In this document: positions 10,502 to 49,468 of the stretch, piece by piece
Layout: the number at the start of each line of letters is the position of its first letter
Numbering within the stretch: the first letter of the stretch is position 1
Origin: Desulfovibrionaceae bacterium
GTDB taxonomy: Bacteria > Desulfobacterota > Desulfovibrionia > Desulfovibrionales > Desulfovibrionaceae
DNA: 59,668 nucleotides
Assembly (NCBI GenBank): GCA_040307025.1
Contig: JAWRKJ010000291.1
Location: forward strand, 1-59,668
Reading direction: 5' to 3'
The notes under the pieces: model-generated
The model's input: only the letters and a program-made list of their open reading frames with translations
Databases searched by the model: none
Told to the model about the DNA's origin: nothing
Position numbers and translations under genes: made by a program

Positions 10502-10505
10502 GGGC

Positions 10506-11486: not shown

Positions 11487-12409
11487 CGGATGGGCCCGTC
11501 GTGGGTGGCGTAACCGAAACCGGTCTTGCCGTAGCCGTTGCCGTTGTACATCAGGAACCAGACGCCGTTGTGCTCGAACACGTGGGGATAGCCGACCATT
11601 TCGGAGTCCCAGCCCTCGGGCGACACGTCGATGCCGGCCTCGTCGTCCTTGCGGGTCCAGGCCAGGCCGTCGGCGGACGTGGCGTAGCCGATGCGGTAGG
11701 TATGGATGGTCGGGGTTTCCCGGTAGGTGTACCACATGTGGTAGGTGTCGCCGAGCTTGGTCACGGACGGCCGGGCAATGGCGTATTCCGTCTCGTACTG
11801 GAACGGAATGCAGACTTCGGGGCTGGCTTCCCAGTGTATGCCGTCGTCGGAGTTGGCGTGCTTGATGGTGTAGTAGTGCTTGAGCACGCCGTTGTTGTTT
11901 TCCCAGTTGACCCCGCCGGTGTACCACATACGCCAGGCTTTGCCTTCGCGCAGGACATAGGCGGCGGCGTTCAGGAACAGGTTGCGGGTGTCCTTGGCCA
12001 GGACCGGTCCCGGGAATTCCTTGGTGATGGTGAGCTTTTCCGGATCGAAAATGGCCCGGCCGATGGCGAATTCGAAGGTGACGTCGTGGAGGAGCTGCCA
12101 GCCGGTATAATAATAATAGACGACGCCGTTGTCGCCCTGGGCAAAGGCCGAGGCCATGGCGCCCCGGTCGTCGAAATAGCCCAAGGGACCCGGCGCCAGC
12201 ACGAGCTTGGGCTTTTGCAGGATTTCGAGCCGGTGGCCGTCCACCCGCATGGTGGTGATGAAGGTATGGGAACGCATGGAAGCGTCCACGGACGTAAAGA
12301 CCAGGGCGTAGATATCGTCATGGAGTCGCCAGACATTGGGCAACCGGGCCTGTGAAAAGCCTTCCAGCGGCGAACAAAAAAGAAATCCCTGTTTTTGCCA
12401 CGCGATCAT
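11483..12409 (-). CDS. Five-bladed beta-propeller glycoside hydrolase-like protein (GH32/43/130-like fold)
   Basis: Repeated blades WRMWYTG, YHMWYTYR and WFLMYNGN; Asp-box-like SDDGIHW and SADGLAW; RPSV and YPHV. Confidence 0.65.
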   Translation of the reverse strand: MIAWQKQGFLFCSPLEGFSQARLPNVWRLHDDIYALVFTSVDASMRSHTFITTMRVDGHRLEILQKPKLVLAPGPLGYFDDRGAMASAFAQGDNGVVYYYYTGWQLLHDVTFEFAIGRAIFDPEKLTITKEFPGPVLAKDTRNLFLNAAAYVLREGKAWRMWYTGGVNWENNNGVLKHYYTIKHANSDDGIHWEASPEVCIPFQYETEYAIARPSVTKLGDTYHMWYTYRETPTIHTYRIGYATSADGLAWTRKDDEAGIDVSPEGWDSEMVGYPHVFEHNGVWFLMYNGNGYGKTGFGYATHDGPIR

Positions 12410-12610
12410 GCCAGAATTTTCCTCCCTGGGCGTTTGCGGCGCAAAACCAAGCGCACCGCCGGTCGGATGACGACCGAAGCGGTCGCTTGTCCCCGCAGAT
12501 AGGGAAGGGAGTATGGGCGCGAAGGCCCGTCTCCGTCAAGGCCGCCAGACCCCGGACAGGCTGTGTCGCGCTGGCGGCGGCCGGTTTTGCCGTACCCGGC
12601 GCTCCCGGCC

Positions 12611-13063
12611 TCAGACGGCTTTCGGGCGCGGGAAGACGAAGAACTTCAGGGCGAAAAACAGGTAGCCGGCGACCACGAAAATGGAGGCGGCCTGGATGAG
12701 CTGGTGCGGATAGCCGAGATGGTCGACAAACACCAGAAGGAGCAGGATATTGAGGAGATAACCGCCGCTGTGGGCCACGAAAAACCGGACCATGGCCCAG
12801 CGCACGGACCCGGCATGGGCAAAGGTGAAGCGGCGGTTGCCGAAAAAGGAAATCAGGACGCCGACGACATAGAGGATGGAGACGGCGGTCTTGGGCGGGA
12901 GCCCAAGCCAGGTCACGAGCAGATAGAGACCGTAGCCGATGGCGTTTTGCGACAGGCCGACCAGGCCGTAGCGCCACAGCTGCCGGACCACGGGCAAACG
13001 CCACAGCTCGCGCAGGGGCGTTTGCCGCACGGTTCGCACAAAGGCCCTAAACGAGGACGCCAC
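12611..13063 (-). CDS. GtrA family polyprenol-P-sugar flippase
   Basis: 150 aa with four TMs; RYGLVG, FFGNRRFTF, KFFVF. The exact start is uncertain. Confidence 0.85.
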   Translation of the reverse strand: MASSFRAFVRTVRQTPLRELWRLPVVRQLWRYGLVGLSQNAIGYGLYLLVTWLGLPPKTAVSILYVVGVLISFFGNRRFTFAHAGSVRWAMVRFFVAHSGGYLLNILLLLVFVDHLGYPHQLIQAASIFVVAGYLFFALKFFVFPRPKAV

Positions 13064-13084
13064 CGCAAGATCCCGGGCCAGGAC

Positions 13085-14230
13085 TCAGGCCGTCCGGGGC
13101 TGGCCGAAAAAGGCGAAGATCCGGTCCACGACCCGGTCCACCTCGTCGGGGCGCATGCCGAAATAGAGGGGCAGGCGCAACAGGCGGTCGGCCGTGGCCA
13201 GGGTGACCGGCAGCTCGCCCACGGCCCGGCCGAAACGCCGGCCGGCCGGCGAGGCGTGCAGGGGGACGTAATGGAACACGGCCGAAATGTCGTCTTCCTT
13301 GAGCGCGGCGGTCAGGGCTTCGCGCACGGCCAGGGATTCGGTCAGGATGTAGAAGATGTGGCCGTTGGCCAGACCTTCCGGCACCTGGGGCAGGCGCAGG
13401 CAACCGGCGTCCTGCAACGGGCGCAGGGCGTGCAGGTAGCGGTCGAACGAGGCCCGGCGGTTGGCGATGATGGTTTCCGCCTCCTCAATCTGGCCCCATA
13501 AAAACGCGCCGATGAGTTCGCTCGGCAGAAACGACGAGCCCACGTCCACCCAGGTGTACTTGTCCACCTGGCCCCGGAAGAACTGGGCCCGGTTGGTGCC
13601 TTTTTCCCGCAGGATCTCGGCCCGCTGCACGAAGGACGGGGTGTTGACGAGCAGGGCCCCGCCCTCGCCGCTGATGATGTTTTTGGTCTCGTGGAAGCTC
13701 AGGCAGCCGAAATCGCCGAGACTGCCCAGCATGCGGCCCTTGTAGGTGGAGAAAAACGCCTGGGCCGCGTCCTCGACTACGAGCAGGCCATGGGCTCGGG
13801 CCAGGTCCATGATCGTGTCCATCTCGCAGGACACGCCCGCGTAATGGACCGGCACGATCACCTTGGTGCGCGGGGTGAGGGCCCCGGGCAACAGGGTCTC
13901 GTTCAGGTTGCAGTTGTCCGGTCGGATGTCCACGAAGACCGGGGTGGCGCCGCGCAGCACGAAGGCGGTGGCGGTGGACGAAAACGTGAACGACGGCATG
14001 ATGACTTCGTCGCCCGGCCCGACGTCGCACAAAAGGGCGGCCATCTCCAGGGCGGCGGTGCAGGAATGGGTGAGCAGGGCGCGGCGCACGCCGAAATGCT
14101 CTTCCATCCAGGTCTGGCAGCGCTTGGTGAATGTGCCGTCCCCGGAAAGATGGGCCTGCATCACGGCCTGGGCGATGTAATACAGTTCCTTGCCGGCGAT
14201 GAAGGGCCGATTGAAAGGTATTTTTTCCAT
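13085..14230 (-). CDS. rffA: dTDP-4-amino-4,6-dideoxygalactose transaminase (DegT/DnrJ family)
   Basis: IPFNRP, HLSGDGTFTKRC, SCTAALEM, EDAAQA, SFHETKN (PLP Lys), REKGTNR, VDKYTWVDVGSSFLPSE. Closely matches WecE/RffA. Confidence 0.92.
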   Translation of the reverse strand: MEKIPFNRPFIAGKELYYIAQAVMQAHLSGDGTFTKRCQTWMEEHFGVRRALLTHSCTAALEMAALLCDVGPGDEVIMPSFTFSSTATAFVLRGATPVFVDIRPDNCNLNETLLPGALTPRTKVIVPVHYAGVSCEMDTIMDLARAHGLLVVEDAAQAFFSTYKGRMLGSLGDFGCLSFHETKNIISGEGGALLVNTPSFVQRAEILREKGTNRAQFFRGQVDKYTWVDVGSSFLPSELIGAFLWGQIEEAETIIANRRASFDRYLHALRPLQDAGCLRLPQVPEGLANGHIFYILTESLAVREALTAALKEDDISAVFHYVPLHASPAGRRFGRAVGELPVTLATADRLLRLPLYFGMRPDEVDRVVDRIFAFFGQPRTA

Positions 14231-14310: not shown

Positions 14311-14685
14311 CTACGGCAGGGGATGGGTGCGGGCGAAGGCCAGGAGATCCTCGTAGATCTGCTGGCAGGTGGCCACGGGCACGTCCGGAGCATGCATGAC
14401 GGTGGGGCCTTCCTGGGAAAAAAGCGCGGCCCAGGGTTTGAGCTGGAGCTCTTCCCAGGCGCCGTAACGGCCGTAGCTGATGACGCCGCCGACGGTTTGC
14501 AGGCGCAGGTCAAAGGATTCGTAGCCCATGGGGCCAGGCAGCAGCTTCTGGGGCCGGCATTCGTGGTACGGGCCGGCCTGGGCGGAAAAATAGAACCAGC
14601 CGCCGATCTGGATGTCCCCGAACCAGCGGTCCTCGGCGCCGAAATGGTCCGTTTCCATGAGCAGTGTCCTGAAATCCTCGGCCAT
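14311..14685 (-). CDS. Hypothetical protein (124 aa)
   Basis: Strong RBS AAGGAGG, GC3-rich codons, fills the gap between operons. Confidence 0.7.
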   Translation of the reverse strand: MAEDFRTLLMETDHFGAEDRWFGDIQIGGWFYFSAQAGPYHECRPQKLLPGPMGYESFDLRLQTVGGVISYGRYGAWEELQLKPWAALFSQEGPTVMHAPDVPVATCQQIYEDLLAFARTHPLP

Positions 14686-14742: not shown

Positions 14743-15810
14743 TCAACGACCCGTGCGCGAGGACAGGGCGAGCAGGTATTTGAACACCGTGGACACATAC
14801 CGTCCCGAGACCACGTCCGGCAGGGGAAACCCGGGCAACGGCCCGTCGCCGAGGCTCCCGGCCAGGGCCAGAAACACCTGGCGCGACAGGGTGGTCAGGC
14901 CCGGTTCCAGCTTTTTTTCCCACAACGCGGCGGCTTCGTCCTCGGCCAGGCCGTGGAGCCGGCAGGCCAGGGGGCGATGCGACAGGATCAGGCAGGCCCC
15001 GTCCCGGGACAGCGGGCACAACCGGGACCAGGACGACAGGCAATATTCCGGGTTGTCGCCATGAAGCCGCGTCAGGTGTTCCATCTCCCGGGAGGCCTCG
15101 GCCGCGTCCTCGATGACCGCCAGCCGGGTTTCGCTCGACAGGCACACGTTGATGCGGTGGCTCACGTGCACGGCTTCGATCAGGGACAGGGTCAAGGGCC
15201 GGCGGCAACAGCGGTCGTGGTCCCGGCCGCACCGGGGCAGGCTCCGGGTCGCGAGCCGGACCGTGGCCACCAGGCCCGTGTAGTCGGCCAGAAACGGGGC
15301 CAGGTTGACCAGATGGTTGCTCTCCAGGCGCGGCTCCCGGATGGTCAGCCGGCCGGAGGCCTTGCCGTAGCGGCGGATGGTCCACCACTGGTCGAAGCTC
15401 GTGGGCTTGGAGCGCAGGGGCGAGAGCACCCGGGCGGCCAGTTTGTGCCCCAGGCCCCGGCGCAGCAGGTAGGCATTTAACACCGTGCCGGTGCGGCCGA
15501 TGCCGTGGCGGCAGTGGATGAGCACCTTCTTGCCGAGATAGACGGCCTCGTCGAGCCAGGCCAGGGCGCGTTCCAGGGCGGGCAGGTCCGGAGCCTTTTC
15601 GTCCGGGATGGGCAGGTAATGAACCTCGAAGCCGGCCGCGGCCTCGATATCGTGCAGGTCGCAGAATTCCGCGCACAGGTTGAGGATGGCCGTGATGCCC
15701 TGCTCGTGCAGGGAATCGAGCTGATCGTAGGTCATGGGCGCGCCGCCGACGGCCAGGTGGTCGGTCACCCATGTCAAGGGGTAGGCGTGGTTTGCGTCGG
15801 TGTCGGCCAT
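14743..15810 (-). CDS. Dual-specificity protein phosphatase fused to a Cys-cluster (YkgJ-like) domain
   Basis: P-loop HCRHGIGRTG (CX5R) and PIPD acid loop. C-terminal CGRDHDRCC...CPL...C...RPLACR. RBS GAGGA precedes ATG 15810. Confidence 0.85.
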   Translation of the reverse strand: MADTDANHAYPLTWVTDHLAVGGAPMTYDQLDSLHEQGITAILNLCAEFCDLHDIEAAAGFEVHYLPIPDEKAPDLPALERALAWLDEAVYLGKKVLIHCRHGIGRTGTVLNAYLLRRGLGHKLAARVLSPLRSKPTSFDQWWTIRRYGKASGRLTIREPRLESNHLVNLAPFLADYTGLVATVRLATRSLPRCGRDHDRCCRRPLTLSLIEAVHVSHRINVCLSSETRLAVIEDAAEASREMEHLTRLHGDNPEYCLSSWSRLCPLSRDGACLILSHRPLACRLHGLAEDEAAALWEKKLEPGLTTLSRQVFLALAGSLGDGPLPGFPLPDVVSGRYVSTVFKYLLALSSRTGR

Positions 15811-15820
15811 GGGGTCCTCG

Positions 15821-18289
15821 TCAACGGTCGGTGCGGGCCAGGAAACGCGTGATCCAGGCATCCACGGCGGTCGGGTCGGTCAGACGCATGTCGAGCATGC
15901 GGGTGCCGGCCAGGAGGTAGCCCAGCATGGCCAGGCGCTTTTGGGCGATGTGCTCGGGGATGCGCGACAGGCGCGCGTCGAGCAGGTCGCCGGTGACGCG
16001 CACGGTGAAACCGAAATGGCCGAGGACCCGGGTGACGCAGTCCAGGCGTAAGCCGCGCTGGTCCGCCGCGGCTCCGCCGCCCTTGAACCGGAAATTGACG
16101 TAATTTTGTTCGGTCTGGGGGCCGCACAGGGCGTCGACCACGGTGAAATGGTAGCCGAAACGCAGCATGACATGGGCATAGACGTCCGAAACCACGGCAT
16201 AGCTGGCCAGATGCCGGGCGCCGGCGGGAAAAAGGCCGGCGCTCGTGCGGTCCAGGGCCTTGTCGTCGGTGACGGGCGGTCCCGACGGCCAGGGCGCGTC
16301 CTCGGCGGCCAGACCGGACCACAGGGCCCAAAGCGGCGCGCTTTTGATCTGGTCGGGCCGCAGTTCCTTGTCCGCGGCCGCGGATTCGAACACGCCGCCG
16401 CCGAGATCGAGCAGATACATGGTCACGGGCAGGCCGCTTTTGATCTTGCGGGCCGAGGCCAGGCCCCGGGGTTCGCCACCGACCAGGGAAAACATGGCGC
16501 CCACGGCCTTTTCGTGGGCGAAACGCACGATGTCGTGCAGGGAGCGGACTTTTTCGGGCACGAAATCCGGTGCTTCGGGATCGGTCAGGGTCAGCCGGGA
16601 CACAAGGGGCGTCAGGTCCGCCAGGCGCCTGGCCACTGGCGACTCAGCCTCCGGCCGTGTCGGCCGGGACCAGGCGAGCAGGGATTCGATCCGGCCCGGA
16701 TACACGGCCCCGGCCTCGGCATCGACCGTGACCGTGGTTCCTTCCTCCAGGGCGTCGAAGGCTTCGGGCAGGCCGGTGATCACCGGCAGGCCGAATTCCC
16801 GGGCCACCGAGGCGAAATGGCCGGCCCGGCTGCCCGCCACGGCCACCACCGCTTCCAGCCGGTCCACGGCCCGGGCCAGGGTCGTCGGCAGGGTGGCGGT
16901 GACAAGCACCGTGCCCGGACCGATGGCTTCCATGTCGAGGACCGTGGCGGCATGGAGCACCGTGCCGCTGGCCACGCCGCCCGAGGCGCATTGCCCACCC
17001 GTGGCCACGGGGGCGATGTCCGGAATTTCGGGGCGGACCGTGATCTGGCCGGGGTCTGACGCGGCCCGTTCCACGGCCATGGGCCGGGACTGGAGAATGA
17101 CCGGGCCGCCTGTGGGCGGGAGCACCCATTCCACGTCCTGGGGCGCGCCAAAGGCCTGTTCCAGGGACAACCCCAGGGCGGCCAGGCGCAAGGCGGCCTG
17201 TTCGGGCAGCACCGGTCCTTCGAGGGATTGGCGGTCGAGCAGGCAATGGGGCGGGTCATGGGACAGGGCCAGGCGTTCGGGATTGGCCGCGCCCTCGACC
17301 AGATCCGAACCCAGGCCCGGCACGGCATAGGCGGCCATGGGCGCTTCCGGATCGGCGCTGTCACGGGTGTAGAGCACGCCCGAGGCCGTGGCCGCGAACA
17401 TGGGCACGAACAACACCGCCATGGGTGTCTCGTCGTCGGCGTGGCCGGTCAGCACCCGGTAGGTGATGGCCTTGGCCGAGTACTTGCCGGCCACCACCCG
17501 CAGGTAGGCGCCCACGGCCACGTCGGCCGGGATGTGGAGCAGGCTTTCGTACTGGCCGGCGAACGAGGCCCGGCCATCCTCGGCCACGGCCGAACTGCGC
17601 GCGGCCAGCTCGCGCGGGCTGCCGTCGGGGCCCCGGCCGAGCAGCCGGGCGGCTTCGGCCAGGGGGCTCGCCACGTCGTCCGGCAGCCGGGCGGACAGGA
17701 TGCGGCGACGGATGTCCGCGGCCAGTCCGCCCAGTTCGTCGGGCCTGGCCAGGTCCACCCGACGCAGGAGCCGGTCGATGGCCGGCCGCAGCTCGGTTGC
17801 TTCCAGGAAATAGCGGAAGGCGTTGGTGGTGACCACGAAGCCCTCGGGCACCGGCACCTTGGCGTCCCGGGCCGCCCGGGCAAGATGGGCGGCCTTGCCG
17901 CCGGCCGCGTCCGGAGCGTCGGCCACGGTTTCCAGGGGCACCACAAAGGGCGGTCCCATGCCGCCCAGGGGAATGTCCAAGGCCATCTGGACGTAGAAAT
18001 CGAGTTTTTTGGCGTAGTCGGCCAGATCGAGGTGACGGGTCGGCTCCAGGCGGGTCAGGCGCGCCACCATTTCGGTGACCGCGTGGCGCAGCTGGTTGGT
18101 CAGATGGACGATGCGGGCCCAGTCCACGACCGCGTCACCGTAGTGGATGGCCTCGATGGCGGCGATCAGTTCCAGGCAGACCTCGTCCTGGCGCAACAGC
18201 TCCCGAAAGGCGTTGTATTTTTCCCGCAACAACACCCCTGGGGCAAAGACCTGATAGGTCCAGCGGCGCAACAGCTCCCTGGAAAACAC
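15821..18289 (-). CDS. PEP-synthase/PPDK-like ATP-grasp plus phosphohistidine swivel domain protein (PEP-utilizing enzyme family)
   Basis: GGKAAHL, VPEGFVVT, RSSAVAED...SFAGQYES, DVEW, LQSRP; swivel motif GSRAGHFASVARE. No pyruvate-binding TIM-barrel C-terminus. Confidence 0.85.
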   Translation of the reverse strand: MFSRELLRRWTYQVFAPGVLLREKYNAFRELLRQDEVCLELIAAIEAIHYGDAVVDWARIVHLTNQLRHAVTEMVARLTRLEPTRHLDLADYAKKLDFYVQMALDIPLGGMGPPFVVPLETVADAPDAAGGKAAHLARAARDAKVPVPEGFVVTTNAFRYFLEATELRPAIDRLLRRVDLARPDELGGLAADIRRRILSARLPDDVASPLAEAARLLGRGPDGSPRELAARSSAVAEDGRASFAGQYESLLHIPADVAVGAYLRVVAGKYSAKAITYRVLTGHADDETPMAVLFVPMFAATASGVLYTRDSADPEAPMAAYAVPGLGSDLVEGAANPERLALSHDPPHCLLDRQSLEGPVLPEQAALRLAALGLSLEQAFGAPQDVEWVLPPTGGPVILQSRPMAVERAASDPGQITVRPEIPDIAPVATGGQCASGGVASGTVLHAATVLDMEAIGPGTVLVTATLPTTLARAVDRLEAVVAVAGSRAGHFASVAREFGLPVITGLPEAFDALEEGTTVTVDAEAGAVYPGRIESLLAWSRPTRPEAESPVARRLADLTPLVSRLTLTDPEAPDFVPEKVRSLHDIVRFAHEKAVGAMFSLVGGEPRGLASARKIKSGLPVTMYLLDLGGGVFESAAADKELRPDQIKSAPLWALWSGLAAEDAPWPSGPPVTDDKALDRTSAGLFPAGARHLASYAVVSDVYAHVMLRFGYHFTVVDALCGPQTEQNYVNFRFKGGGAAADQRGLRLDCVTRVLGHFGFTVRVTGDLLDARLSRIPEHIAQKRLAMLGYLLAGTRMLDMRLTDPTAVDAWITRFLARTDR

Positions 18290-18299
18290 GCGTCCTCCG

Positions 18300-18668
18300 C
18301 TACCGGCCGTCGCCGGCCAGGGCCTCCTCGACCTTGCGTTCGAGTTCGTCCTTGTCGATGGGTTTGACGCAGTACTGGCAGGCTCCGAGCTGCACGGACT
18401 GGCGGGCCGTTTCCAGGGTCGGGTAGCCGGTGAGCATGATGACCCGGGTCTCGGGGGAGCGTTTCTTGATCTCTTCGAGCACTTCCACGCCGCTGAGCTT
18501 TTTGAGCTTCATGTCCAGGATGGCCAGTGCCGGATGTTTTTTCCCCACATGGGCCAGGGCATCCTCTTCCTCGGTGAAGACGGTGACGGCATGGCCCTTG
18601 CGTTCGAGTATCCGTTTGATGACGACGCCGGCGTCAATGACGTCGTCGAGCACGATGATGTCGGCCAT
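18300..18668 (-). CDS. Single-domain response regulator (REC only)
   Basis: IIVLDD, LAILDMKL, MLTGY, YCVKP; 122 aa. Confidence 0.92.
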   Translation of the reverse strand: MADIIVLDDVIDAGVVIKRILERKGHAVTVFTEEEDALAHVGKKHPALAILDMKLKKLSGVEVLEEIKKRSPETRVIMLTGYPTLETARQSVQLGACQYCVKPIDKDELERKVEEALAGDGR

Positions 18669-18674
18669 GGCAGG

Positions 18675-20716
<2,042 letters not shown>

Positions 20717-20720
<4 letters not shown>

Positions 20721-21649
20721 TCCGCCTCCTCCATGGCTTCAAGTCCCAGGCGTTCGGCCAGGGCCCGCACCGGGGCGTAATCGGCATCGGTGGCCGGGAT
20801 GATGCCGCGCATGCCGGCGGTTTCGAGGATGACCGCATCCTCGGAACGCTTGGGCGACAGGGCGAACATGGCCCGGGCGATCTTGTCCACGATCTGGGGC
20901 GACAGCCCGGTCCGGGCGGCATAGACCCAGCCGGGATAGGCCTTGCTCTCGGCCAGCACGCGGATCTGGCTGAGGGCGATCTTGCCGCGCAGGATGTCCA
21001 GGGTGCCGTCGCGGATGGAGCCGATGTCGTAGGTGCCGGCGTAGACAGCCAGCACGACCTTTTCCTGCTTGCCGCCCGGGCCCGGGGCGAAACTGATTTC
21101 GCTGAAGTCGCTGCGCTTGATGCCGTTGTCCAGGAATTCGCCCAGGGCGTAGAGATACCCGCCGGCCGAGGACGGGTCCACGGCGATCCAACGCTTGCCG
21201 CGGCAATCCTCAAGGGTCCGGATGGCGGTGTTGTCCCGGCGGCAGATGATCTGGCTCTTGAAATCGGGTTTGCCGGACGGCTCGATGATGCGGGCAAAGG
21301 CCCGGGCGCCGTAACGTGCCATGCGGATATAGGCGAAGGGGTTGGAAAAGGAGATGTCGATCTCGCCGCGCTCCACCATGCGCACGTGTTCCTCGAAGGT
21401 GTCGGGGAAAATCTGGCGCAGGGCAATGCCCGTGGCCCGGGAGAGGTAGTCGAGGAGCAGCCGGTGGCGCTCGTAGGACACGGTGTGGGCGTACTGGGGC
21501 AGATAGGCGTAGGTCACGGCCCGGGGCGGGGTGCGCACGGTGATGTCCTCGCGCCGGGACATGTCCACGCGGATGGCGTCCTCGTCCTGGCCGCAGCCGG
21601 TGAGCACCGAGGCGCACAGGACGGCGCGCAGGAAATCCCGTCGGTTCAC
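20717..21649 (-). CDS. PhnD/PtxB-like phosphate/phosphite/phosphonate substrate-binding lipoprotein
   Basis: Tat-like VNRRDFL and lipobox LTGC; DISFSNPFAY, VDPSSAGGYL, DADYAPVR. GTG start at 21649. Confidence 0.82.
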
Positions 21650-22215
21650 GGGTCCCCCCTGGGGTTGCCGAGCTCGGTCCAGCTGCGCAGCCGGGCACGT
21701 CTGGCAGCTGTGTCCCGCCGGCGTTTTTCGACGCTGCCGAACAACGGCAACCGCTGCCAAAGTGGCCACATGCCGAGCCGCAGCAGGATATAAATTCCCA
21801 GAAAAACGGCATTGTAGCGTACGGTATGGCCCGGAAGGAAGGGAATGTCCACCCCGCTGAAGCGTCCGTCCAGCCAGGCCAGGGCAAAGGGCAGGGGCCA
21901 GATGGACACGGAAAAAAGCGCCGCCCCGGCGAAAAAGGATTTGCCGAAGGCCTCGTTCGCCTCTGTGTTGGCGGCCTTGTAGGCTTCCTTGTTGCGGGCT
22001 TCGATGGCGGCCACGGACAAGTTGTGCATGCGCACCATCTCGGCCTCTTCCTTGGTGTAATGGCCGCGGTTGAAAAGCCAGGTCAGGTCATAGGTGAGGC
22101 GGCCGAGAACCAGGCTCGCCAGGGCCAGCACCAGGGTGCCCAGATAGAAGCCGGCCACCGGGTTGGCGACGAGGCGGTAGGGGGCGATGCAGATGGCGTC
22201 GAAGAGTTCGGTCAC
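21646..22215 (-). CDS. Conserved hypothetical membrane protein (about 3 TMs)
   Basis: VTELFDAICIAPYRL...YKAANTEANEAFGKSFF...WPLPFALAW. RBS GAGGG precedes GTG 22215; the stop overlaps the next start. Confidence 0.72.
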   Translation of the reverse strand: MTELFDAICIAPYRLVANPVAGFYLGTLVLALASLVLGRLTYDLTWLFNRGHYTKEEAEMVRMHNLSVAAIEARNKEAYKAANTEANEAFGKSFFAGAALFSVSIWPLPFALAWLDGRFSGVDIPFLPGHTVRYNAVFLGIYILLRLGMWPLWQRLPLFGSVEKRRRDTAARRARLRSWTELGNPRGDP

Positions 22216-22326
22216 GATTCCCTCGTTGTGCGCGTTGACGAACCGTACCACAACCGGCGTTCCTGGGGAACGGGCTGTCCGGCCTTTGTTTGGCCCGTAC
22301 CCCGGGGAGCGGTCGGATACGGGCAT

Positions 22327-22355
22327 AAAAAAAGCCCCGGGCCGAGGCCCGGGGC
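22327..22355 (-). terminator. Rho-independent terminator after the tauE-like gene
   Basis: Minus strand GCCCCGGGCC-TC-GGCCCGGGGC followed by T7. Confidence 0.8.
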
Positions 22356-22379
22356 CAGGCAGGGGAGGTGGGATTCCCC

Positions 22380-23525
22380 TTAGATATTGATGGCGAAGAA
22401 ACCGCGCAGCACATAGCGGGCGCCGACATACAGGGCGAGCACGATAAACAGGCGCTTGAGCCAGATGTCGGGGATGTACTTGGACGTGCGCGGGCCGATG
22501 ATGGAGCCGATGACGATGCCGATCAGTTCGATGCCGATCAGGTGCCAGTGAATGGACACGCCGCCGGACATGAAGGTGGTGATCGAGGTGATCATGCCGA
22601 CCAGCACGGCCAGGGCCGAGGTGCCGGCGGCCAGATACATGGGCAGTTGGGCCACGTTGGTCAAAAAGGGCACGAGCAGGAAGCCGCCGCCGACACCCAG
22701 GAATGCGGCCACGCCGGCGATGACGATGCCGCCGATGAACGGGATCAACGGGTTGAAGCCGAACTGCACGCCGTAGAAGGTAAAGGTGACGCGGGTCAGG
22801 GAGATCGAGGTCACCTTGACGCCCAGGGCCTTGGTGTCGACCTTTTCCCCGCTTTTCTGGCGCTTGACGGTTTCCTCGAAGGCCTTGGCCGCTTCCTTGG
22901 CCTGCTTTTTCCCCGCCTGGGCCCGGGAAGTGGTGCCCCAGAAGAGATAGGCGCCCAGGAACAGGACGAACAGACCGAAATAGCCCTGGTAGGCCGAGAA
23001 GGACACCTTCCCCTGGGACAGGGTCACCGACAGCCAGCTGCCGACGATGGAGCCCGCGCCGAGCGACACGGCCAACGGTAGCACGAGACGGCCCATCTTC
23101 CAGTAGTTGAAGGAGGAAATCAGCGCCGACAGGCCGACCAGCCACTGGTTGGACACGCGGATGGAGTCGGTGACGAGCTTGTTGAGCTGGGGTGCGGTGC
23201 TCTTAAACGACTTGGCGTAGTTGCCGAGGCCGTAGACGGTGATGTGGCCCACGCCGGCCATGACGCCGCCGAAGGCGCCGACCGTGGAGAAAATCCAGCC
23301 CACCCACACGGCCCAGCAGAAGGCCAGGATGAGATTGACCTCGGGCGCGCCGTTGATGCCGAGAAAACCTGCCGGCTTGGACGGGTCGATCTGCCCCGGT
23401 CCCGAGCCCTGGGGAGCCTTGGCAATGGCATCGGCCAGTTTGTCGGCAAAGGCCGGTTCGATCCACAGGGTCAGGGCCGCCAGGGCCAAAAGCCCCACGG
23501 GCAGGGTCAATTTCCAATGTTTCAC
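22380..23525 (-). CDS. TauE/SafE (TSUP) family sulfur-oxyanion permease
   Basis: Two repeats of the TSUP motifs: STVGAFGG and FLGVGGGFLLVP, AAGTS, GSIIG. About 8 TMs plus a signal-like N-terminus. AAGGAGG precedes GTG 23525. Confidence 0.88.
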   Translation of the reverse strand: MKHWKLTLPVGLLALAALTLWIEPAFADKLADAIAKAPQGSGPGQIDPSKPAGFLGINGAPEVNLILAFCWAVWVGWIFSTVGAFGGVMAGVGHITVYGLGNYAKSFKSTAPQLNKLVTDSIRVSNQWLVGLSALISSFNYWKMGRLVLPLAVSLGAGSIVGSWLSVTLSQGKVSFSAYQGYFGLFVLFLGAYLFWGTTSRAQAGKKQAKEAAKAFEETVKRQKSGEKVDTKALGVKVTSISLTRVTFTFYGVQFGFNPLIPFIGGIVIAGVAAFLGVGGGFLLVPFLTNVAQLPMYLAAGTSALAVLVGMITSITTFMSGGVSIHWHLIGIELIGIVIGSIIGPRTSKYIPDIWLKRLFIVLALYVGARYVLRGFFAINI

Positions 23526-23799: not shown

Positions 23800-23837
23800 A
23801 TCCCTGACTTTGTGATAATTTTCACAAAGTCAGGGAT
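23800..23837. promoter_or_regulatory. 38-bp palindrome containing a Rex (or Crp/HcpR-type) operator
   Basis: ATCCCTGACTTTGTGA-TAATTT-TCACAAAGTCAGGGAT has perfect 16-bp arms. The core TTGTGATAATTTTCACAA fits the Rex consensus TTGTGAAnnnnTTCACAA. Confidence 0.75.
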
Positions 23838-23935
23838 TAAAAAAGGGCCTCGCCAAACGGCGAAACCCTTTAACCGGATGCACATGGCCGGCACGCTTTT
23901 TTTGACCCAAAGTGCGAGACAGGGCAAGTCTTTTT

Positions 23936-23954
23936 TTGTATGATTTTCATTTTG
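23936..23954. promoter_or_regulatory. Weak Fur-box-like site overlapping a TTGACC -35 element
   Basis: Reverse strand CAAAATGAAAATCATACAA, 12/19 to GATAATGATAATCATTATC. TTGACC-N17-TATACG lies upstream of ATG 24035. Confidence 0.35.
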
Positions 23955-24034
23955 ACCCCTTGTCCCGGCCGGTATATACGGCGTCAGCCCCGGCCCCGCG
24001 ACGGACGGGCCCTACTTCCGGAGGCGTGGCGTCC

Positions 24035-24565
24035 ATGTTCCCTTTTTCGCGGCCCAGAACCATCAAGGATATCGGCGACAAACTGCGCGGCCGCGTCCGC
24101 CGCTACCGACTGCCCCGAAACGGCGGCATGCTGTCCTTTGTCGGGACCTTGCTGACGTTTTACCGCCACCAAAACGGGCCGGAGGCCGCGCCGTTTCCGC
24201 CGGAAGTCGGCTATGTGGACCTGCTGGCCGTCTTCAGGACCCGGGCCGGACGCGCGCTCGTCTATTATATCGTGGCCTGCTCCGGTCACGACGACCTGAC
24301 CCTGCGCCGTGAATACGCCCATGTCTGCCCGGACATCGATGTCCTGGCGGATTTTTTGGACGCCATGACCTATCCCAACAAAGCCTGTTTTGCGGATCGG
24401 ATCGTGGCCGAAGCGGCCGGGCGCCCGGTTTCCCCTCCCCCAGCGGCCACGCCCGAAGCGCCCGACAGGTCCGGTCAAACCGACCGACCGCAAGCGACGG
24501 ACGCAACCGAGACCACCGCCCCCGCGTCCTCTTCCGACCCGTCCCTGCCAGCCGTGGAGCCGTAA
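24035..24565 (+). CDS. Hypothetical protein
   Basis: GGAGG RBS, ATG 24035, Pro/Thr-rich tail. Confidence 0.65.
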   Translation: MFPFSRPRTIKDIGDKLRGRVRRYRLPRNGGMLSFVGTLLTFYRHQNGPEAAPFPPEVGYVDLLAVFRTRAGRALVYYIVACSGHDDLTLRREYAHVCPDIDVLADFLDAMTYPNKACFADRIVAEAAGRPVSPPPAATPEAPDRSGQTDRPQATDATETTAPASSSDPSLPAVEP

Positions 24566-24630: not shown

Positions 24631-24697
24631 GCCTTTTGGAAGGACGTCGCATTTCGTGGGCGTCTGTTTCCGGCGCCATAAGTCACGGAGGGCGGCC

Positions 24698-26209
24698 ATG
24701 GACGAGCGGACGAGCGACACGCGGGATCGGCAGGCGAATCCCTGCCCTACGGACGCCCGGCGGGTTTGTCCCGACAATCGTGAAACGGTCGCGGCCTCGC
24801 GGCTGGTTCCGGAACCGCAAGCGCCATCCGGCCCCGGTCCGGGACGTCCGGTGACATTTCGGTCCGGCCCCGGCGGCGAGAGCCCTTGGACCGCGGTGTT
24901 CGGCCTGACCACCGGCGTCACCGTGCTGCCAAGCGGCCTGGCCCGGGAGACCGATGTGGACGGCGAGCGCCTGGAGGTTCTGGAACTCGACGCGACGGGC
25001 CTCGGTGCGATCCAGAACGGCCGGGTGGACGAGACCGCGGCATCCCTTGAGACCGGACGCTACGACCACGACGGCCGGCCCGTGACCCGGCTTGTGGCCG
25101 AATTGCACGGCGTGGAAGGCTTTTCCCCGGCCATGACCGCCGCGGCCTTGCACCGGGACGGGCAATGGTTTGCGGATGGCCTGCTCACCCGGGAACTCCT
25201 CGACGGGGTGCGGGTGTTCACCATTCGGGCTTCCGATCTGGGCGAGCCGTTGCGCGGCACGCACGCGGCCACTCCTGACAGTTTTCATGTCCGCTACACG
25301 GCGAGCCTGCGCGAATATCAGGGGGAAACCCTGCTGCGCGACGCCATTGTTGACCAAACGTGGGACCTGGAGGCTGGGAAGTCCTCAGGCGGTCCGAGCG
25401 TGGGCCACCGTTTTTCCGTGTCCATCACCACCCGGGATGCCCTGGGCCGGCCCGTGCGGACCGTTGCCTGCCACAATACCCTGGAGGCCAACGGGGGCGA
25501 ACGGGAACGTCTGGCCGCCACCTGGTACGATGGCGGCCGGCGACGGGTCGCACTTGCCGGGGAATGCGTCCTCGGCTCCGGCGGCTGGCGCGCCCCGGAC
25601 GCCCTGGCTTGGCGGCTGTCGCCGGCCGGACTCGGGTCCTGCGCCCTGGGTCGGGACGGGTATGCGGCCGCCGGTGACTGCCTGACCGGCGTTTTTCTCG
25701 CCGCCGCCCGGGACGGGGGCCTGTTTCTCGATCCCTTGCGGGAGGCCCTGGCCGCCGGATTGTGCGATCCCTTGGGCGCCGCCACCGATGGCGCCCGCGA
25801 CATCCCCTACGAACTCACCTGGTGCCGGCGGCGCTTCGAGGCCGGCAAGCCCGTGGCCCGGCGCGATGACACGGCTTGGCGTCGGCGGGTCGAACCGGTG
25901 TCCGGCCGCGGGCCGTCGTTGCTTGCCGGGGCCAGCCATACCGACGAACGGTTCTGGAGCGGCCTGTGCATCAGCCGCCAGCGCCTGGAGCTGGCCGAGG
26001 TGCCCCAGGCGGGCGGCTTGGCCACGACATGCACGGCCACGGCCGGCCTGGGCGACCGGTCCCGTCCGGCCACGCGTCTGGTGCCGGGCTGTCTGGCCGG
26101 GGCCGATCCCGAGGCCGGCCGGGCCGCAAGGTCCCTGGCCCGGGAGGCGGCGGCCATCAAGGCCGAGATCGGCCGTCTCCTCAAGCGCCTCGTCACCCCC
26201 GTGGGCTGA
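24698..26209 (+). CDS. Hypothetical protein (503 aa) with two YD-repeat-like segments
   Basis: GGAGGG RBS precedes ATG 24698; segments YDHDGRPVT and RDALGRPVRT. No family recognised. Confidence 0.55.
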   Translation: MDERTSDTRDRQANPCPTDARRVCPDNRETVAASRLVPEPQAPSGPGPGRPVTFRSGPGGESPWTAVFGLTTGVTVLPSGLARETDVDGERLEVLELDATGLGAIQNGRVDETAASLETGRYDHDGRPVTRLVAELHGVEGFSPAMTAAALHRDGQWFADGLLTRELLDGVRVFTIRASDLGEPLRGTHAATPDSFHVRYTASLREYQGETLLRDAIVDQTWDLEAGKSSGGPSVGHRFSVSITTRDALGRPVRTVACHNTLEANGGERERLAATWYDGGRRRVALAGECVLGSGGWRAPDALAWRLSPAGLGSCALGRDGYAAAGDCLTGVFLAAARDGGLFLDPLREALAAGLCDPLGAATDGARDIPYELTWCRRRFEAGKPVARRDDTAWRRRVEPVSGRGPSLLAGASHTDERFWSGLCISRQRLELAEVPQAGGLATTCTATAGLGDRSRPATRLVPGCLAGADPEAGRAARSLAREAAAIKAEIGRLLKRLVTPVG

Positions 26210-26508
26210 CCCTCACCCGGCAACCGGCCGCTCCGGGCGGCCTCCTTGCCGTAGCGCCCGGCCTGCTGGCCTTGAATCCGTGCGGCTGTCTCGTTGCGCT
26301 TTTGAGCGGCGCGGTTTTTGCTCTATTATCTACTTAAAAGATCAAGAAATAGTGTGGCGACAAACAACGCGCAACGTCATGTTTGTGCAATTGTTTGTTT
26401 GCAAAGGCGTGCGCCCATGCTACAGGAAAAACAACTTTCTCCAGCGGAAGCCTGCCTTGGACAACGGCAAGTCCCGGTACGCGCATGAGCCGGGCAGAAG
26501 GAGGAACC

Positions 26509-28179
26509 ATGCGTTTGCGGCATCGCTCCTGGACACCGTTTGGCCTGCTGGCCCTGTTGTGCGGGGCCCTGCTGCTGGGACCGGCCGGACTATCCGGCGC
26601 CGGGGACCAGGAGGCCGACGCGGACAAGGCCCCGGGCCGCCAGCTCGCGCGCAGCGCCGTCAAGGCGCCCGGTGCCCGCTGGACCACGGCCGATCACTCG
26701 AAATTCGAGGTGCTCAAAAAGGACTTCGGCAAGCCCGAGGAAGTAACGGCGGCCTGCCTGTCCTGTCATGACCTGGCCGCCGACCAGATCCACCATGCCA
26801 TCCACTGGACCTGGATCTGCGCCGACTGCGGCGACGGCAAGACCATGGGCAAGTACGGCCGTACCATCAACAACTTCTGCATCTCCGTGCCGACCAATGA
26901 ACCGCGCTGCACCTCGTGCCACATTGGCTACGGCTGGAAGAACAAGAATTTCGACTTCGCCTCCAACGACCGCATCGACTGTCTGGTCTGCCACGACACG
27001 ACCCACACCTACAAGAAGTTCCCCACCAAGGCCGGCTATCCCGTGACCGAGCCCACGGTCTTTCCCGAGGACGGCCAGACCTACCTGCCTCCGGATTACA
27101 AGGCCATCGTGGCCAAGGTCGGCCGGCCGGACCGGCTCAATTGCGGGGCCTGCCACTTCTACGGCGGGGGCGGCGACGGCGTGAAGCACGGCGACCTGGA
27201 CAGTTCCATGGGCCTGCCCAAGAAGTCCCTGGACGTGCACATGGACGTCGACGGCCTTAATTTCACGTGTCAGCGCTGCCACACCACCAAGGAACACCAG
27301 ATCGCCGGCCGGCTCTACACCTCGCCGGCCGCGCCCGAGCGCATCAGCCTCACCGAGGCCGACCTGGCCTCCAAGATCGCCTGCGAGTCCTGCCACGGCC
27401 AAAAGCCGCACAAGAAGGATGCCAAGGCCAATGACCACACCGATAAGGTTGCCTGCCAGGCCTGCCATATCCCCCGCTTCGCCCGGGTGCTGCCGACCAA
27501 GATGTCGTGGGACTGGTCGGCCGCCGGCAAGCTCAATGCCGAAGGCAAGCCGTTCAAGAAGGAAGGCCCGTACGGCAAGCCGGTCTACGATTCCAAGAAG
27601 GGCGATTTCGTCTGGGAAAAAAACGTGGTGCCGCGTTACTACTGGTTCAACGGTGCCATGAGCAACCTGCTCGTGACCGACACTGTGGACCCGAGCCAGA
27701 TGATAAGCGTCAACCACCCGGTGGGCTCGTCCGACGACCCGCGCTCGCGCATCATGCCGTTCAAGCGCCACACCGGCAAACAGCCCTTTGATCCCGTGAA
27801 CAACACCTTGGTTTTTCCGCATCTTTTTGGCCCAAAGGACGATACCGACGCCTTCTGGGTCGGCTTCGACTGGAAGCGGGCCGTCACCGTGGCCATGAAT
27901 GCCGTGGGTCTGCCGTTTTCCGGGGAGGTCGGGTTCGTCTCCACCGAATACTTCTTTCCCATCACCCACATGGTGGCACCCAAGGAGCAGGTGGTGGCCT
28001 GCCGGGAATGCCACACGCGCCAGGGACGCCTGGAAGGCGTGCCCGGGGTGTACGTACCCGGACGCGACATCCATGCCGGCGTGTCCACCGTGGGCTGGGC
28101 GGCCGTGATCGCGGCCCTGGTCGCGGTGTGCGGCCACGGGCTGATCCGCATCGTCTCCCGAGGCAGGAGGAAGCAATGA
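26509..28179 (+). CDS. Octaheme c-type cytochrome, tetrathionate reductase (OTR) family
   Basis: Signal peptide; eight CxxCH motifs (CLSCH, CTSCH, CLVCH, CGACH, CQRCH, CESCH, CQACH, CRECH); GK...INNFC and GGGGDGVKHGDLD; C-terminal TM; AGGAGG RBS. Confidence 0.92.
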   Translation: MRLRHRSWTPFGLLALLCGALLLGPAGLSGAGDQEADADKAPGRQLARSAVKAPGARWTTADHSKFEVLKKDFGKPEEVTAACLSCHDLAADQIHHAIHWTWICADCGDGKTMGKYGRTINNFCISVPTNEPRCTSCHIGYGWKNKNFDFASNDRIDCLVCHDTTHTYKKFPTKAGYPVTEPTVFPEDGQTYLPPDYKAIVAKVGRPDRLNCGACHFYGGGGDGVKHGDLDSSMGLPKKSLDVHMDVDGLNFTCQRCHTTKEHQIAGRLYTSPAAPERISLTEADLASKIACESCHGQKPHKKDAKANDHTDKVACQACHIPRFARVLPTKMSWDWSAAGKLNAEGKPFKKEGPYGKPVYDSKKGDFVWEKNVVPRYYWFNGAMSNLLVTDTVDPSQMISVNHPVGSSDDPRSRIMPFKRHTGKQPFDPVNNTLVFPHLFGPKDDTDAFWVGFDWKRAVTVAMNAVGLPFSGEVGFVSTEYFFPITHMVAPKEQVVACRECHTRQGRLEGVPGVYVPGRDIHAGVSTVGWAAVIAALVAVCGHGLIRIVSRGRRKQ

Positions 28180-49316: not shown

Positions 49317-49348
49317 CAAGACCGGAAGCCGGGGCTAGGGGGGCTCAA

Positions 49349-49468
49349 AACGTCGAGTCCCGCCTGGGGCGGGAGCGGGGGACCCACTCCCCGGGGCGTA
49401 TCGCCAAAGCGCGTAGGGCAACCTCTTCGGCCCGAGCCCGTCAGCTAACCTCGCAGACGTCGAAGGGG
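49349..49468 (+). ncRNA. c-di-AMP riboswitch (ydaO-yuaA class)
   Basis: Conserved elements GGGGGACCC, GGGGCG, GTAGGG, CCCGAGCCCGTCAGCTAACCTCG. P1 pairs ACGTC(49350)/GACGT(49456). Located 5' of a KimA/YdaO homolog. Confidence 0.88.

What the first reader, a model, noticed from the sequence alone, without database searches (positions are those of the whole stretch)
14743..23525. Candidate undescribed signalling system: TauE permease, PhnD-like lipoprotein, kinase, REC, dikinase and Cys-phosphatase
Seen: seven co-directional genes. After tauE the spacing is overlapping or about 5-10 nt, apart from a terminator-containing gap directly after tauE. The binding lipoprotein has no ABC permease or ATPase partner and instead overlaps a membrane histidine kinase. 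The regulator has no output domain, and the last two genes encode a potential writer (PEP-synthase-like His phosphotransferase) and eraser (CX5R phosphatase). Inference: a periplasmic oxyanion (sulfur or phosphorus) is sensed through binding protein plus kinase, relayed by the REC protein to control a reversible phosphorylation pair, and linked to TSUP transport and redox control through the upstream palindrome. Similar gene sets are, to my recollection, repeated in Desulfovibrionaceae, but I know of no established mechanism.
Basis: partly seen in the sequence, partly recalled or inferred. Interest (0 to 1): 0.78.

Follow-up and report, generated by a model that had tools for sequence, protein, structure and literature searches.

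The report
Known nitrate cluster with dikinase–phosphatase switch
These seven genes match, domain for domain and in order, the published Desulfovibrio "nitrate cluster" whose loss makes sulfate-reducing bacteria nitrate-resistant; they likely sense a sulfur oxyanion and likely use an unusual kinase–phosphatase pair to switch a permease, a mechanism that is still untested.

Summary
The seven genes are real and spaced as described. They are not undescribed: order and domains match the "nitrate cluster" DVU0251–0245/Dde_0598–0605 (Korte 2014), where insertions give nitrate resistance and thiosulfate uptake was proposed. I found no mechanism in print. The scan noted this module twice before on other genomes.

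New evidence for a coupled dikinase–phosphatase pair:
- The two genes are adjacent in 38 of 40, 15 of 18 and 66 of 67 loci.
- Two natural fusions join them in one protein.
- Catalytic residues are invariant in both.
- The receiver co-occurs with the phosphatase (88 genomes both, 7 one only, 56 neither) and is weakly predicted to bind the dikinase.

Also found: a six-cysteine insert in the kinase, a Rex-like operator, and a dead dikinase paralogue beside the permease in other lineages.

Against a simple switch: the permease occurs without the phosphatase in 28 genomes, and phosphatase mutants behave differently in the two published strains.

Best reading (0.4): a post-translational switch on sulfur-oxyanion uptake. 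Ligand and substrate are unknown.

The parts
23800..23837 (.). Palindrome with a Rex-like operator core at 23810-23827, about 285 nt upstream of tauE
   Evidence: inverted repeat; 1 mismatch to a recalled Rex consensus; similar site upstream of 13 of 56 tauE orthologues, background 0.008 per 600 bp; same motif before hydrogenase, pyrophosphatase and ATP synthase genes
22380..23525 (-). TauE/SafE (TSUP) permease, 381 aa; counterpart of DVU0251/Dde_0598
   Evidence: PF01925 E 4e-25; Table 3 of PMC4001038
22333..22356 (-). Intrinsic-terminator-like hairpin after tauE
   Evidence: terminator-like sites in 29 of 68 tauE-to-membrane-gene gaps by a simple scan with no shuffle control
21646..22215 (-). 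Small membrane protein, 189 aa, no Pfam family; constant partner of this TauE; counterpart of DVU0250/Dde_0600
   Evidence: in the same locus as tauE in 17 of 17, 35 of 36 and 1 of 1 loci; directly after tauE in 16 of 16 further loci
20717..21649 (-). PhnD/PtxB-fold periplasmic binding lipoprotein, 310 aa, lipobox Cys19; counterpart of DVU0249/Dde_0601
   Evidence: PF12974 E 5e-60; PDB relatives PtxB, ArrX, HtxB, AioX; Cys19 conserved
18675..20720 (-). Membrane histidine kinase, 681 aa: TM-sCache-TM-HAMP-PAS-HisKA-HATPase; counterpart of DVU0248/Dde_0602
19932..20054 (-). Six-cysteine 'two-CW'-type insert that splits the kinase's HAMP domain (C223, C229, C234, C244, C260, C263); possible metal or Fe-S site (inferred)
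   Evidence: Each Cys in 91-93 of 96 rows; NF045718 matched 4 of 4 orthologous inserts, 2 over cut-off, but not the window's own copy
18300..18668 (-). Receiver-only response regulator, 122 aa, D8/D9/D52/T80/K102 invariant; counterpart of DVU0247/Dde_0603
   Evidence: PF00072; invariant in 97 of 97 rows; most conserved of the five proteins compared in distant loci, median 69% against 43% for the dikinase
15821..18289 (-). Dikinase-fold phosphotransferase, 822 aa: N-terminal helices, ATP-grasp (about 110-405), phospho-His swivel domain (His491 codon at 16817-16819), unclassified C-terminal domain (550-822); counterpart of DVU0246/Dde_0604
   Evidence: PF01326 + PF00391; K132, R231, E387, Q400, R402, H491 invariant; model pLDDT 87; ATP-grasp Z 32.3, rmsd 2.2, 289 aligned to rifampin phosphotransferase 5hv1
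14743..15810 (-). Dual-specificity-type cysteine phosphatase, 355 aa (HCxHGIGRTG, Cys100-Arg106 at 15513-15493) fused to a CxxCxxCC-like cysteine domain; counterpart of DVU0245/Dde_0605
   Evidence: PF03692 in 18 of 49 members; model pLDDT 93; Z about 20 to Tk-PTP, VHZ, SsoPTP, KAP

Best explanation
The cluster is this organism's copy of the Desulfovibrio nitrate cluster and likely works as a post-translational switch on sulfur-oxyanion uptake: the lipoprotein likely binds a periplasmic oxyanion (probably thiosulfate, with nitrate as an accidental mimic or passenger), the kinase would then phosphorylate the receiver, the receiver is predicted to bind the dikinase, and the dikinase likely moves a phosphate from ATP through His491 onto a protein target, probably the TauE-membrane-protein complex, from which the CX5R phosphatase would remove it. 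Shown: gene set, conserved order, intact catalytic residues, dikinase-phosphatase fusions, and the published mutant phenotype. Inferred from family chemistry: ATP to AMP + Pi with a phospho-His intermediate, and His-to-Asp transfer from kinase to receiver. Weakly predicted: receiver-dikinase contact. Unshown: ligand, substrate and the sign of regulation.
For: (1) Genetics in PMC4001038: in G20, insertions in all seven genes gain fitness in nitrate (2.1-3.5) but not in NaCl, KCl or nitrite. In DvH, isolated DVU0246, 0247, 0250 and 0251 mutants resist nitrate, while DVU0245 (phosphatase) does not. Receiver and dikinase lie downstream of the permease, so their phenotypes cannot be polar on it. 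The authors cite unpublished mild sickness on thiosulfate. (2) No DNA-binding output in the cluster. (3) Dikinase-phosphatase adjacency in 38 of 40, 15 of 18 and 66 of 67 loci; two fusion proteins, 43% identical to each other, among the 150 best of 1,508 hits. (4) Receiver and phosphatase co-occur: 88 both, 2 and 5 alone, 56 neither, of 151 genomes. (5) Receiver-dikinase complex: weak support, score 0.60 against best control 0.00; runs agree in 100% of contacts, partner pLDDT at least 85; the mark was reached by 116 of 157 solved and 2 of 215 mismatched pairs, but at 0.60 or under by only 18 of the 157 and by both mismatches. (6) The phosphatase fold is nearer small protein phosphatases (Z about 20) than glucan, inositol-pyrophosphate or RNA phosphatases (Z 13-15). 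(7) Precedent for PF12974 sensors of oxyanions: ArrX and AioX among the PDB hits; TtrS has a PhnD-like sensing domain and thiosulfate was argued to fit one (PMC5408782). (8) The dikinase family recurs beside TSUP permeases: USP-TauE-TM-dikinase-receiver on contig C8 of this genome; a dead paralogue beside tauE and the membrane gene in 7 loci; neighbouring 'PEP synthase', TM and TauE proteins rise together on thiosulfate in Dissulfuribacter (PMC13490349; not compared by sequence).
Against: The TauE orthologue occurs in 28 genomes without the phosphatase (18 of 29 in one genus with no receiver or phosphatase match), and 10 of 90 phosphatase-bearing genomes have no match to it. No Ser/Thr/Tyr/His in TauE or the membrane protein stood out as conserved only where the module is present (64 against 9 rows for TauE). 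In G20 the phosphatase mutant is resistant too (+2.08), although it is the last gene; a pure eraser should not behave so. In DvH the kinase is annotated as a pseudogene and its isolated mutant has little or no advantage, while the receiver mutant scores 9.14. Insertions can be polar on downstream genes. The dikinase's closest solved relatives in these searches (RPH, PEPS, PPDK, HpeI) act on small molecules, as recalled. Lipid phosphatases score almost as well as protein ones (Z 18-19).
Confidence: 0.4

Rival explanations
1. The dikinase phosphorylates a small molecule or polymer (a metabolite, the imported solute or a second messenger) and the phosphatase removes that phosphate. The two are consecutive steps of one cycle that the sensor switches on, as glucan water dikinase and SEX4/LSF2 are in starch turnover (recalled), so loss of either can give the same phenotype.
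For: Closest folds are small-molecule dikinases (RPH Z 32.3, HpeI Z 26.5). The C-terminal domain has an enzyme-like set of conserved residues (H585, D586, R589, H592, E593, G712-H714, G737-G739, R748). G20 phosphatase and dikinase mutants share the phenotype. A fusion suits sequential chemistry as well as antagonism.
Against: The DvH phosphatase mutant is not resistant. No carbohydrate-binding domain in either protein. Glucan phosphatases rank lower by fold (Z 13.5-13.9). No metabolic enzyme gene is part of the conserved set.
Confidence: 0.27
2. The dikinase is a non-canonical phosphodonor or sink for the receiver: its phospho-His passes phosphate to or from Asp52 and merges ATP/AMP status with the periplasmic signal. 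The receiver, not the dikinase, is the output and binds the permease or another target.
For: The receiver is the best-conserved of the five proteins compared, which suggests several partners. Weak predicted contact with the dikinase. In DvH the receiver mutant is strong while the kinase is a pseudogene with a weak phenotype. In the model the N-terminal helices pack with the HDxxRxxHE helix into a four-helix bundle.
Against: The bundle matches to CheA P1 (Z 9.1-9.3) are at the level common for helical bundles. CX5R phosphatases are not needed for acyl-phosphates (established chemistry), yet the phosphatase is the dikinase's most constant neighbour. In several lineages the receiver gene lies apart from the dikinase-phosphatase pair.
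Confidence: 0.15
3. The genes are ordinary and unrelated: a PEP synthase for gluconeogenesis, a phosphonate ABC binding protein whose permease lies elsewhere, and a generic two-component pair.
For: Pfam and NCBIfam give PEP-synthase and PhnD names as nearest labels.
Against: PEP synthase score 203.5 against a cut-off of 739.75 and no PEP-binding barrel. PhnD score 84.9 against 261.1; no PhnE over cut-off. Conserved order, fusions and a shared mutant phenotype.
Confidence: 0.04

Closest known systems
Desulfovibrio 'nitrate cluster' DVU0251-DVU0245 / Dde_0597-Dde_0605 (Korte et al. 2014, PMC4001038)
   Same: Same seven domain types in the same order: TauE, conserved hypothetical, PtxB/PhnD-like, HAMP-PAS kinase, receiver, PPDK_N plus mobile domain, dual-specificity phosphatase. 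Similar gene sizes for the receiver (360 against 369 bp), membrane gene (588 against 570) and phosphatase (1110 against 1068). The G20-type DUF169 gene precedes tauE in 9 of 64 family loci.
   Different: The kinase is intact here (pseudogene in DvH). DUF169 lies on another contig here. Annotated DVU0251 and DVU0246 are shorter (963 and 2235 bp against 1146 and 2469). This copy has a Rex-like operator. No direct sequence comparison with DVU or Dde proteins was made.
AioXSR / ArrXSR and TtrSR / ThsSR oxyanion sensors
   Same: A PhnD/PtxB-fold protein serves a histidine kinase rather than an ABC transporter; ArrX and AioX are among the 17 PDB matches, and the TtrS model matches the lipoprotein.
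   Different: Their regulators bind DNA (recalled); here the regulator is receiver-only and is followed by two enzymes. The ligand is unknown.
Rifampin phosphotransferase, PEP synthase, PPDK and PigC/RedH (swivelling phospho-His dikinases)
   Same: ATP-grasp domain with conserved Lys/Arg/Glu/Gln/Arg and a phospho-His swivel domain.
   Different: No PEP-binding barrel. The His domain is central, not C-terminal as in RPH (recalled). The C-terminal domain has no Pfam, NCBIfam or PDB sequence match. The PDRP-regulated Thr two residues before the His (recalled) is Ala in 120 of 145 rows.
Plant glucan water dikinase with SEX4/LSF2 phosphatases (recalled)
   Same: A dikinase-fold writer paired with a CX5R eraser.
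   Different: No carbohydrate-binding module; the phosphatase is closer to Tk-PTP, VHZ and KAP; a two-component sensor and a permease are part of the set.

Membership tests
Desulfovibrio nitrate cluster | Seven genes with these domains in this order | tested here: met
   against Table 3 of PMC4001038
Desulfovibrio nitrate cluster | Sequence orthology to the DVU/Dde proteins | not tested
   No record named as DvH or G20 was among the 80 loci returned. Indirect support: single-copy receiver and phosphatase across the order and the DUF169 layout
Desulfovibrio nitrate cluster | Loss of function gives nitrate but not nitrite resistance | not testable with these tools
   Shown only for DvH and G20
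PEP synthase / PPDK | ATP-grasp catalytic residues and phospho-His domain | tested here: met
   K132, R231, E387, Q400, R402, H491 invariant in 52 of 52 and 97 of 97 rows
PEP synthase / PPDK | C-terminal PEP/pyruvate-binding barrel and family score | tested here: not met
   Only PF01326 and PF00391 found; TIGR01418 203.5 against 739.75, TIGR01828 33.1 against 843.45
Rifamycin phosphotransferase (Rph) | Whole-protein match with C-terminal His domain | tested here: not met
   NF041857 157.7 against 999; His domain at 458-527 of 822. Works like it in the ATP-grasp only
PhnD/PtxB ABC binding protein | Permease and ATPase partners; family score | tested here: not met
   None in the cluster; PhnE below cut-off in this 89%-complete genome; TIGR03431 84.9 against 261.1
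PhnD/PtxB ABC binding protein | Ser-Thr-Ser oxyanion loop and distal His (roles recalled) | tested here: not met
   PtxB STSS aligns with SSAG and GTHD with GKQE; SAGG and QE are conserved in the family
AioX/ArrX/TtrS-type signalling binding protein | PF12974 fold encoded with a histidine kinase | tested here: met
   4-nt overlap with the kinase; the five-gene run holds in 29 of 37 and 42 of 55 loci
AioX/ArrX/TtrS-type signalling binding protein | DNA-binding cognate response regulator | tested here: not met
   122-aa receiver only
AioX/ArrX/TtrS-type signalling binding protein | Binds an oxyanion and changes kinase activity | not testable with these tools
   Needs ITC and kinase assays
Dual-specificity (CX5R) phosphatase | HCX5R loop, general-acid Asp, PTP fold | tested here: met
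   H99, C100, R106 invariant and D70 in at least 90% of 49 rows; Z 20.3, rmsd 2.6, 150 aligned to Tk-PTP
Glucan phosphatase (SEX4/LSF2/laforin) | Glucan-binding platform or module | tested here: inconclusive
   No module by Pfam; Z 13.5-13.9 against 20 for protein phosphatases
TSUP (TauE/SafE) permease | PF01925 over cut-off | tested here: met
   89.2 bits against 32.6; substrate not testable
Rex regulon | Rex-type palindrome upstream, shared with known Rex targets | tested here: met
   Pyrophosphatase is a Rex target in G20 (PMC4045070); a Rex site is predicted at hnd (PMC10084766). The consensus was recalled, and a CRP/FNR-family factor is not excluded
Rex regulon | Rex binds the site | not testable with these tools
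   Needs a binding assay

The most novel reading that the evidence does not exclude
The 'PEP/pyruvate-binding' proteins of sulfur-cycling anaerobes are an unrecognised class of bacterial protein kinase. They use dikinase chemistry (ATP to AMP, phospho-His swivel), are gated directly by receiver-only regulators, are reversed by a fused or adjacent Fe/Zn-cysteine CX5R phosphatase, and open and close TSUP anion permeases. The family is large (1,508 clusters at 50% identity match its unclassified C-terminal domain), and dead paralogues act as pseudokinase partners of the permease.
Probability: 0.33. Interest if true: 0.82.

Novelty: new member of a known kind. Interest (0 to 1): 0.5.

Why it matters
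The cluster is a main genetic route to nitrate resistance in two model sulfate reducers, which bears on nitrate control of oil-field souring, and a candidate control point for sulfur-oxyanion uptake. Its mechanism was left open in 2014. The fusions, invariant residues (H491, C100, D52), the cysteine insert and the dead paralogue give specific point mutants and assays in strains that already have mutant libraries. If the dikinase proves to phosphorylate a protein, it would add a new kind of output to two-component signalling. As a locus, though, this is another copy of a published cluster.

Tried and rejected
Literature. Locus tags were recalled leads. DVU0149/0150/0152 led to a different, syntrophy-linked cluster (passages). 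DVU3214-3219 found nothing. Searches for a mechanism returned only Korte 2014 on this cluster, plus one passing mention of DVU0251 (PMC3431258). The library lacks most subscription papers. Wu 2020, Carlson 2015, Stoeva 2020 and a recalled 2023 phosphatase survey were not held; they and their supplements may say more. Of the first three I saw only reference entries and a summary sentence in PMC9723548.

C-terminal domain of the dikinase. No PDB sequence match, no Pfam or NCBIfam family, no Atlas answer. It was not folded alone, so its fold is untested rather than new. A search of shorter proteins gave 75 hits, many on short contigs or named partial; no stand-alone form is shown. The phosphatase's C-terminal domain was likewise barely tested by fold.

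Expression. Contigs of three metatranscriptome runs and one probable DNA run covered only scattered short pieces; they say nothing on operon structure or read-through of the terminator.

Promoters. The sigma-70 scan found one site, on the opposite strand, as expected by chance. I saw no clear sigma-54 site by eye.

A TauE phospho-site specific to module-bearing genomes was sought and not seen (only 9 negative rows). Earlier-findings search by sequence gave nothing. No Rfam family lies in the cluster.
Full report
1. Observation. Pfam names them TauE permease, an unclassified membrane protein, a phosphonate-binding-fold lipoprotein, an sCache-HAMP-PAS histidine kinase, a receiver-only regulator, a PPDK_N plus PEP-utiliser protein and a dual-specificity phosphatase. 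The hairpin after tauE and the upstream palindrome are real. The closest named relatives are Solidesulfovibrio.

2. Conservation. The phosphatase matched in 90 of 151 genomes of the order and 24 of 251 of the phylum, nearly always once. I fetched 40 of the 89 other order matches and 20 of the 22 new phylum matches; the tool returned the best 80 of 544 named loci. Counting only loci with enough upstream DNA, dikinase and phosphatase are adjacent in 38 of 40, 15 of 18 and 66 of 67. The five-gene run from lipoprotein to phosphatase holds in 29 of 37, 2 of 16 and 42 of 55. All seven are colinear in 13 of 37, 0 of 16 and 25 of 53. The sets can overlap, kin are not independent, and the 10-kb flank can cut off tauE. 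The core is therefore dikinase plus phosphatase, then the receiver, then sensor and binding protein; permease plus membrane protein form a separate, constant pair. Genome-wide, receiver and phosphatase go together (88 both, 2 and 5 alone, 56 neither). The permease does not (80 both, 28 permease only, 10 phosphatase only, 33 neither).

3. It is published. Korte et al. 2014 (PMC4001038; I read the abstract, introduction, two results sections, discussion passages and the supplement) describe DVU0251-0245 and Dde_0597-0605 as the 'nitrate cluster'. Their Table 3 lists the same seven domain types in the same order. In G20, insertions in every gene gain fitness in nitrate (2.1-3.5) and not in NaCl, KCl or nitrite. 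In DvH, isolated mutants of permease, membrane protein, receiver and dikinase resist nitrate; the phosphatase mutant does not (pooled fitness -6.04); the kinase is annotated as a pseudogene. The authors propose a leaky thiosulfate transporter and cite unpublished mild defects on thiosulfate. A 2021 paper repeats that reading (PMC9723548, passages). I could not compare sequences with the DVU or Dde proteins, but the G20-type DUF169 gene precedes tauE in 9 of 64 family loci. Searches found no mechanism; several follow-up papers were not held.

4. The dikinase. The ATP-grasp superposes on rifampin phosphotransferase (Z 32.3, rmsd 2.2, 289 residues). K132, R231, E387, Q400, R402 and H491 are invariant, so ATP-to-AMP chemistry with a phospho-His is likely. 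It is not a PEP synthase or Rph by score or architecture. The C-terminal 270 residues have their own conserved motifs (HDxxRxxHE, GYH, FKGGG, R748) and no family or PDB sequence match. A profile of that domain finds 1,508 clusters at E up to 0.001. This genome has paralogues on three other contigs; one lies in a USP-TauE-TM-dikinase-receiver cluster, another beside a hybrid kinase. In a tree of 87 rows (143 before removing near-identical ones), the 9 paralogues form their own clade (support 1.0), apart from the phosphatase-adjacent group.

5. The pair. Among the 150 listed hits, two proteins of 1,252 and 1,205 aa fuse a complete dikinase to a complete phosphatase (36-37% and 43-44% identical to the window's proteins, 43% to each other). 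I did not see their DNA, so read-through artefacts are not excluded, but two distinct proteins make that less likely. The phosphatase has an intact CX5R loop and acid Asp. Its fold is nearest small protein phosphatases (Z about 20), then lipid (18-19), and further from glucan, inositol-pyrophosphate and RNA phosphatases (13-15). Its C-terminal half carries conserved cysteines that match PF03692 in 18 of 49 members.

6. The sensor arm. The lipoprotein's PDB relatives include PtxB, HtxB and PhnD, and also ArrX and AioX, which serve kinases (role recalled). The PtxB Ser-Thr-Ser loop and His are replaced by conserved SAGG and QE, and no PhnE passes cut-off in this 89%-complete genome. TtrS has a PhnD-like sensing domain, and thiosulfate was argued to fit such a domain (PMC5408782, passages). 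The kinase has a six-cysteine insert in its HAMP domain, each Cys in 91-93 of 96 rows; 4 of 4 orthologous inserts matched the two-CW model, 2 over cut-off, while the window's own copy did not. It may add a metal or redox input (inference). The receiver keeps all phosphorylation residues and is the best-conserved of the five proteins compared. The receiver-dikinase complex got weak support: 0.60 against best control 0.00, runs agreeing in 100% of contacts, partner pLDDT at least 85. The mark was reached by 116 of 157 solved and 2 of 215 mismatched pairs, but at 0.60 or under by only 18 of the 157 and by both mismatches.

7. Link to the permease. Where the cluster is split, a shortened dikinase paralogue often stays beside tauE and the membrane gene (7 loci). 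Six were checked: all lack the His and most ATP-grasp residues. Five form a clade (support 0.987) nested among the phosphatase-adjacent dikinases, with a long-branch caveat. This suggests a non-catalytic tie between the dikinase scaffold and the permease (inference). In Dissulfuribacter, neighbouring 'PEP synthase', TM and TauE proteins rise on thiosulfate (log2 3.40, 1.79, 1.56; PMC13490349, table passages); the gene types resemble the paralogous module, and I did not compare sequences. Against the link: the permease exists without the phosphatase in 28 genomes, and no module-specific phospho-site was seen.

8. The palindrome. Its core is one mismatch from a recalled Rex consensus. Only two such sites exist in the assembly; the other precedes an FeFe-hydrogenase operon. 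Among the 12 sites with up to two mismatches are ones before a DHH pyrophosphatase, ATP synthase b and the atp-rex operon in this window. A similar site lies upstream of 13 of 56 tauE orthologues, 9 of them close relatives, against 0 of 81, 1 of 105 and 0 of 127 for the other genes tested. Redox control by Rex is thus likely in this genus and not general. Published support is indirect (PMC4045070 and PMC10084766, passages).

9. Mechanism. Most likely (0.4): oxyanion, binding protein, kinase, receiver, dikinase, phosphorylation of the permease complex or a close partner, reversed by the phosphatase. The DvH genetics fit this; the G20 phosphatase result, the weak DvH kinase phenotype and the separable permease do not. 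Rivals: a small-molecule or polymer cycle (0.27); the dikinase as phosphodonor for the receiver (0.15); unrelated ordinary genes (0.04).

10. Verdict. Observation confirmed; interpretation partly supported. This is a new member of a published cluster whose mechanism is still open and unusual. Two earlier scan notes reached the same identification on other genomes; I had stated it before seeing them. Interest 0.5.

Noticed in passing
L033:14293-16281, L166:11671-13806, L167:1459-3501, L169:11604-13553, L170:8324-10024, L171:8593-10026, L178:8899-10746: Shortened, catalytically dead dikinase paralogue (His and most ATP-grasp residues lost in the six checked) kept next to tauE and the membrane gene in several lineages; a possible pseudo-enzyme partner of the permease.
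   Followed up: partly
P0252, P0275: Natural dikinase-phosphatase fusion proteins with all catalytic motifs intact.
   Followed up: yes
P0307, P0326, P0329, P0333, P0335, P0340: Dikinase-family proteins with a C-terminal extension of about 215 aa; two of the six match concanavalin-like lectin models.
   Followed up: partly
window 37524-38189 (-), site at 40175: rex gene (PF06971 + PF02629) behind the atpI-atpB genes, 14 kb from the cluster, with a Rex-like site upstream of that operon. Both loci whose loss gave nitrate resistance in Korte 2014 lie in this window.
   Followed up: partly
window 49341-49474 (+): c-di-AMP riboswitch, RF00379, 86.9 bits, upstream of the long ORF at 49518-52736, which has a radical SAM domain near its end, and of nrdD at 52585-54630.
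   Followed up: no
window 26383-28835 (+): Octaheme tetrathionate-reductase-family cytochrome (TIGR04315 over cut-off) and cytochrome b, 3 kb from tauE on the other strand; a possible sulfur-oxyanion link, conservation not tested.
   Followed up: no
L011 (G000:C8), 8019-13744: Paralogous module USP - TauE - Alph_Pro_TM - dikinase - receiver - second, apparently degenerate dikinase cut by the contig end, with a divergent sigma-54 two-component pair.
   Followed up: partly
L010 (G000:C256) and L012 (G000:C285): Three more dikinase paralogues around a hybrid kinase and a 755-aa unclassified protein on C256; one divergent from PadR and a chromate transporter on C285.
   Followed up: no
G000:C289:65-826: DUF169 homologue, 64% identical to the copy that precedes tauE in other genomes, but unlinked here.
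   Followed up: no
window 23912-24565 (+), 24656-26209 (+), 14311-14685 (-): Flanking ORFs with no Pfam or NCBIfam match.
   Followed up: no
L030, L044, L041: Tandem tauE duplicates in two loci, and one locus with two divergent copies of receiver-dikinase-phosphatase.
   Followed up: no
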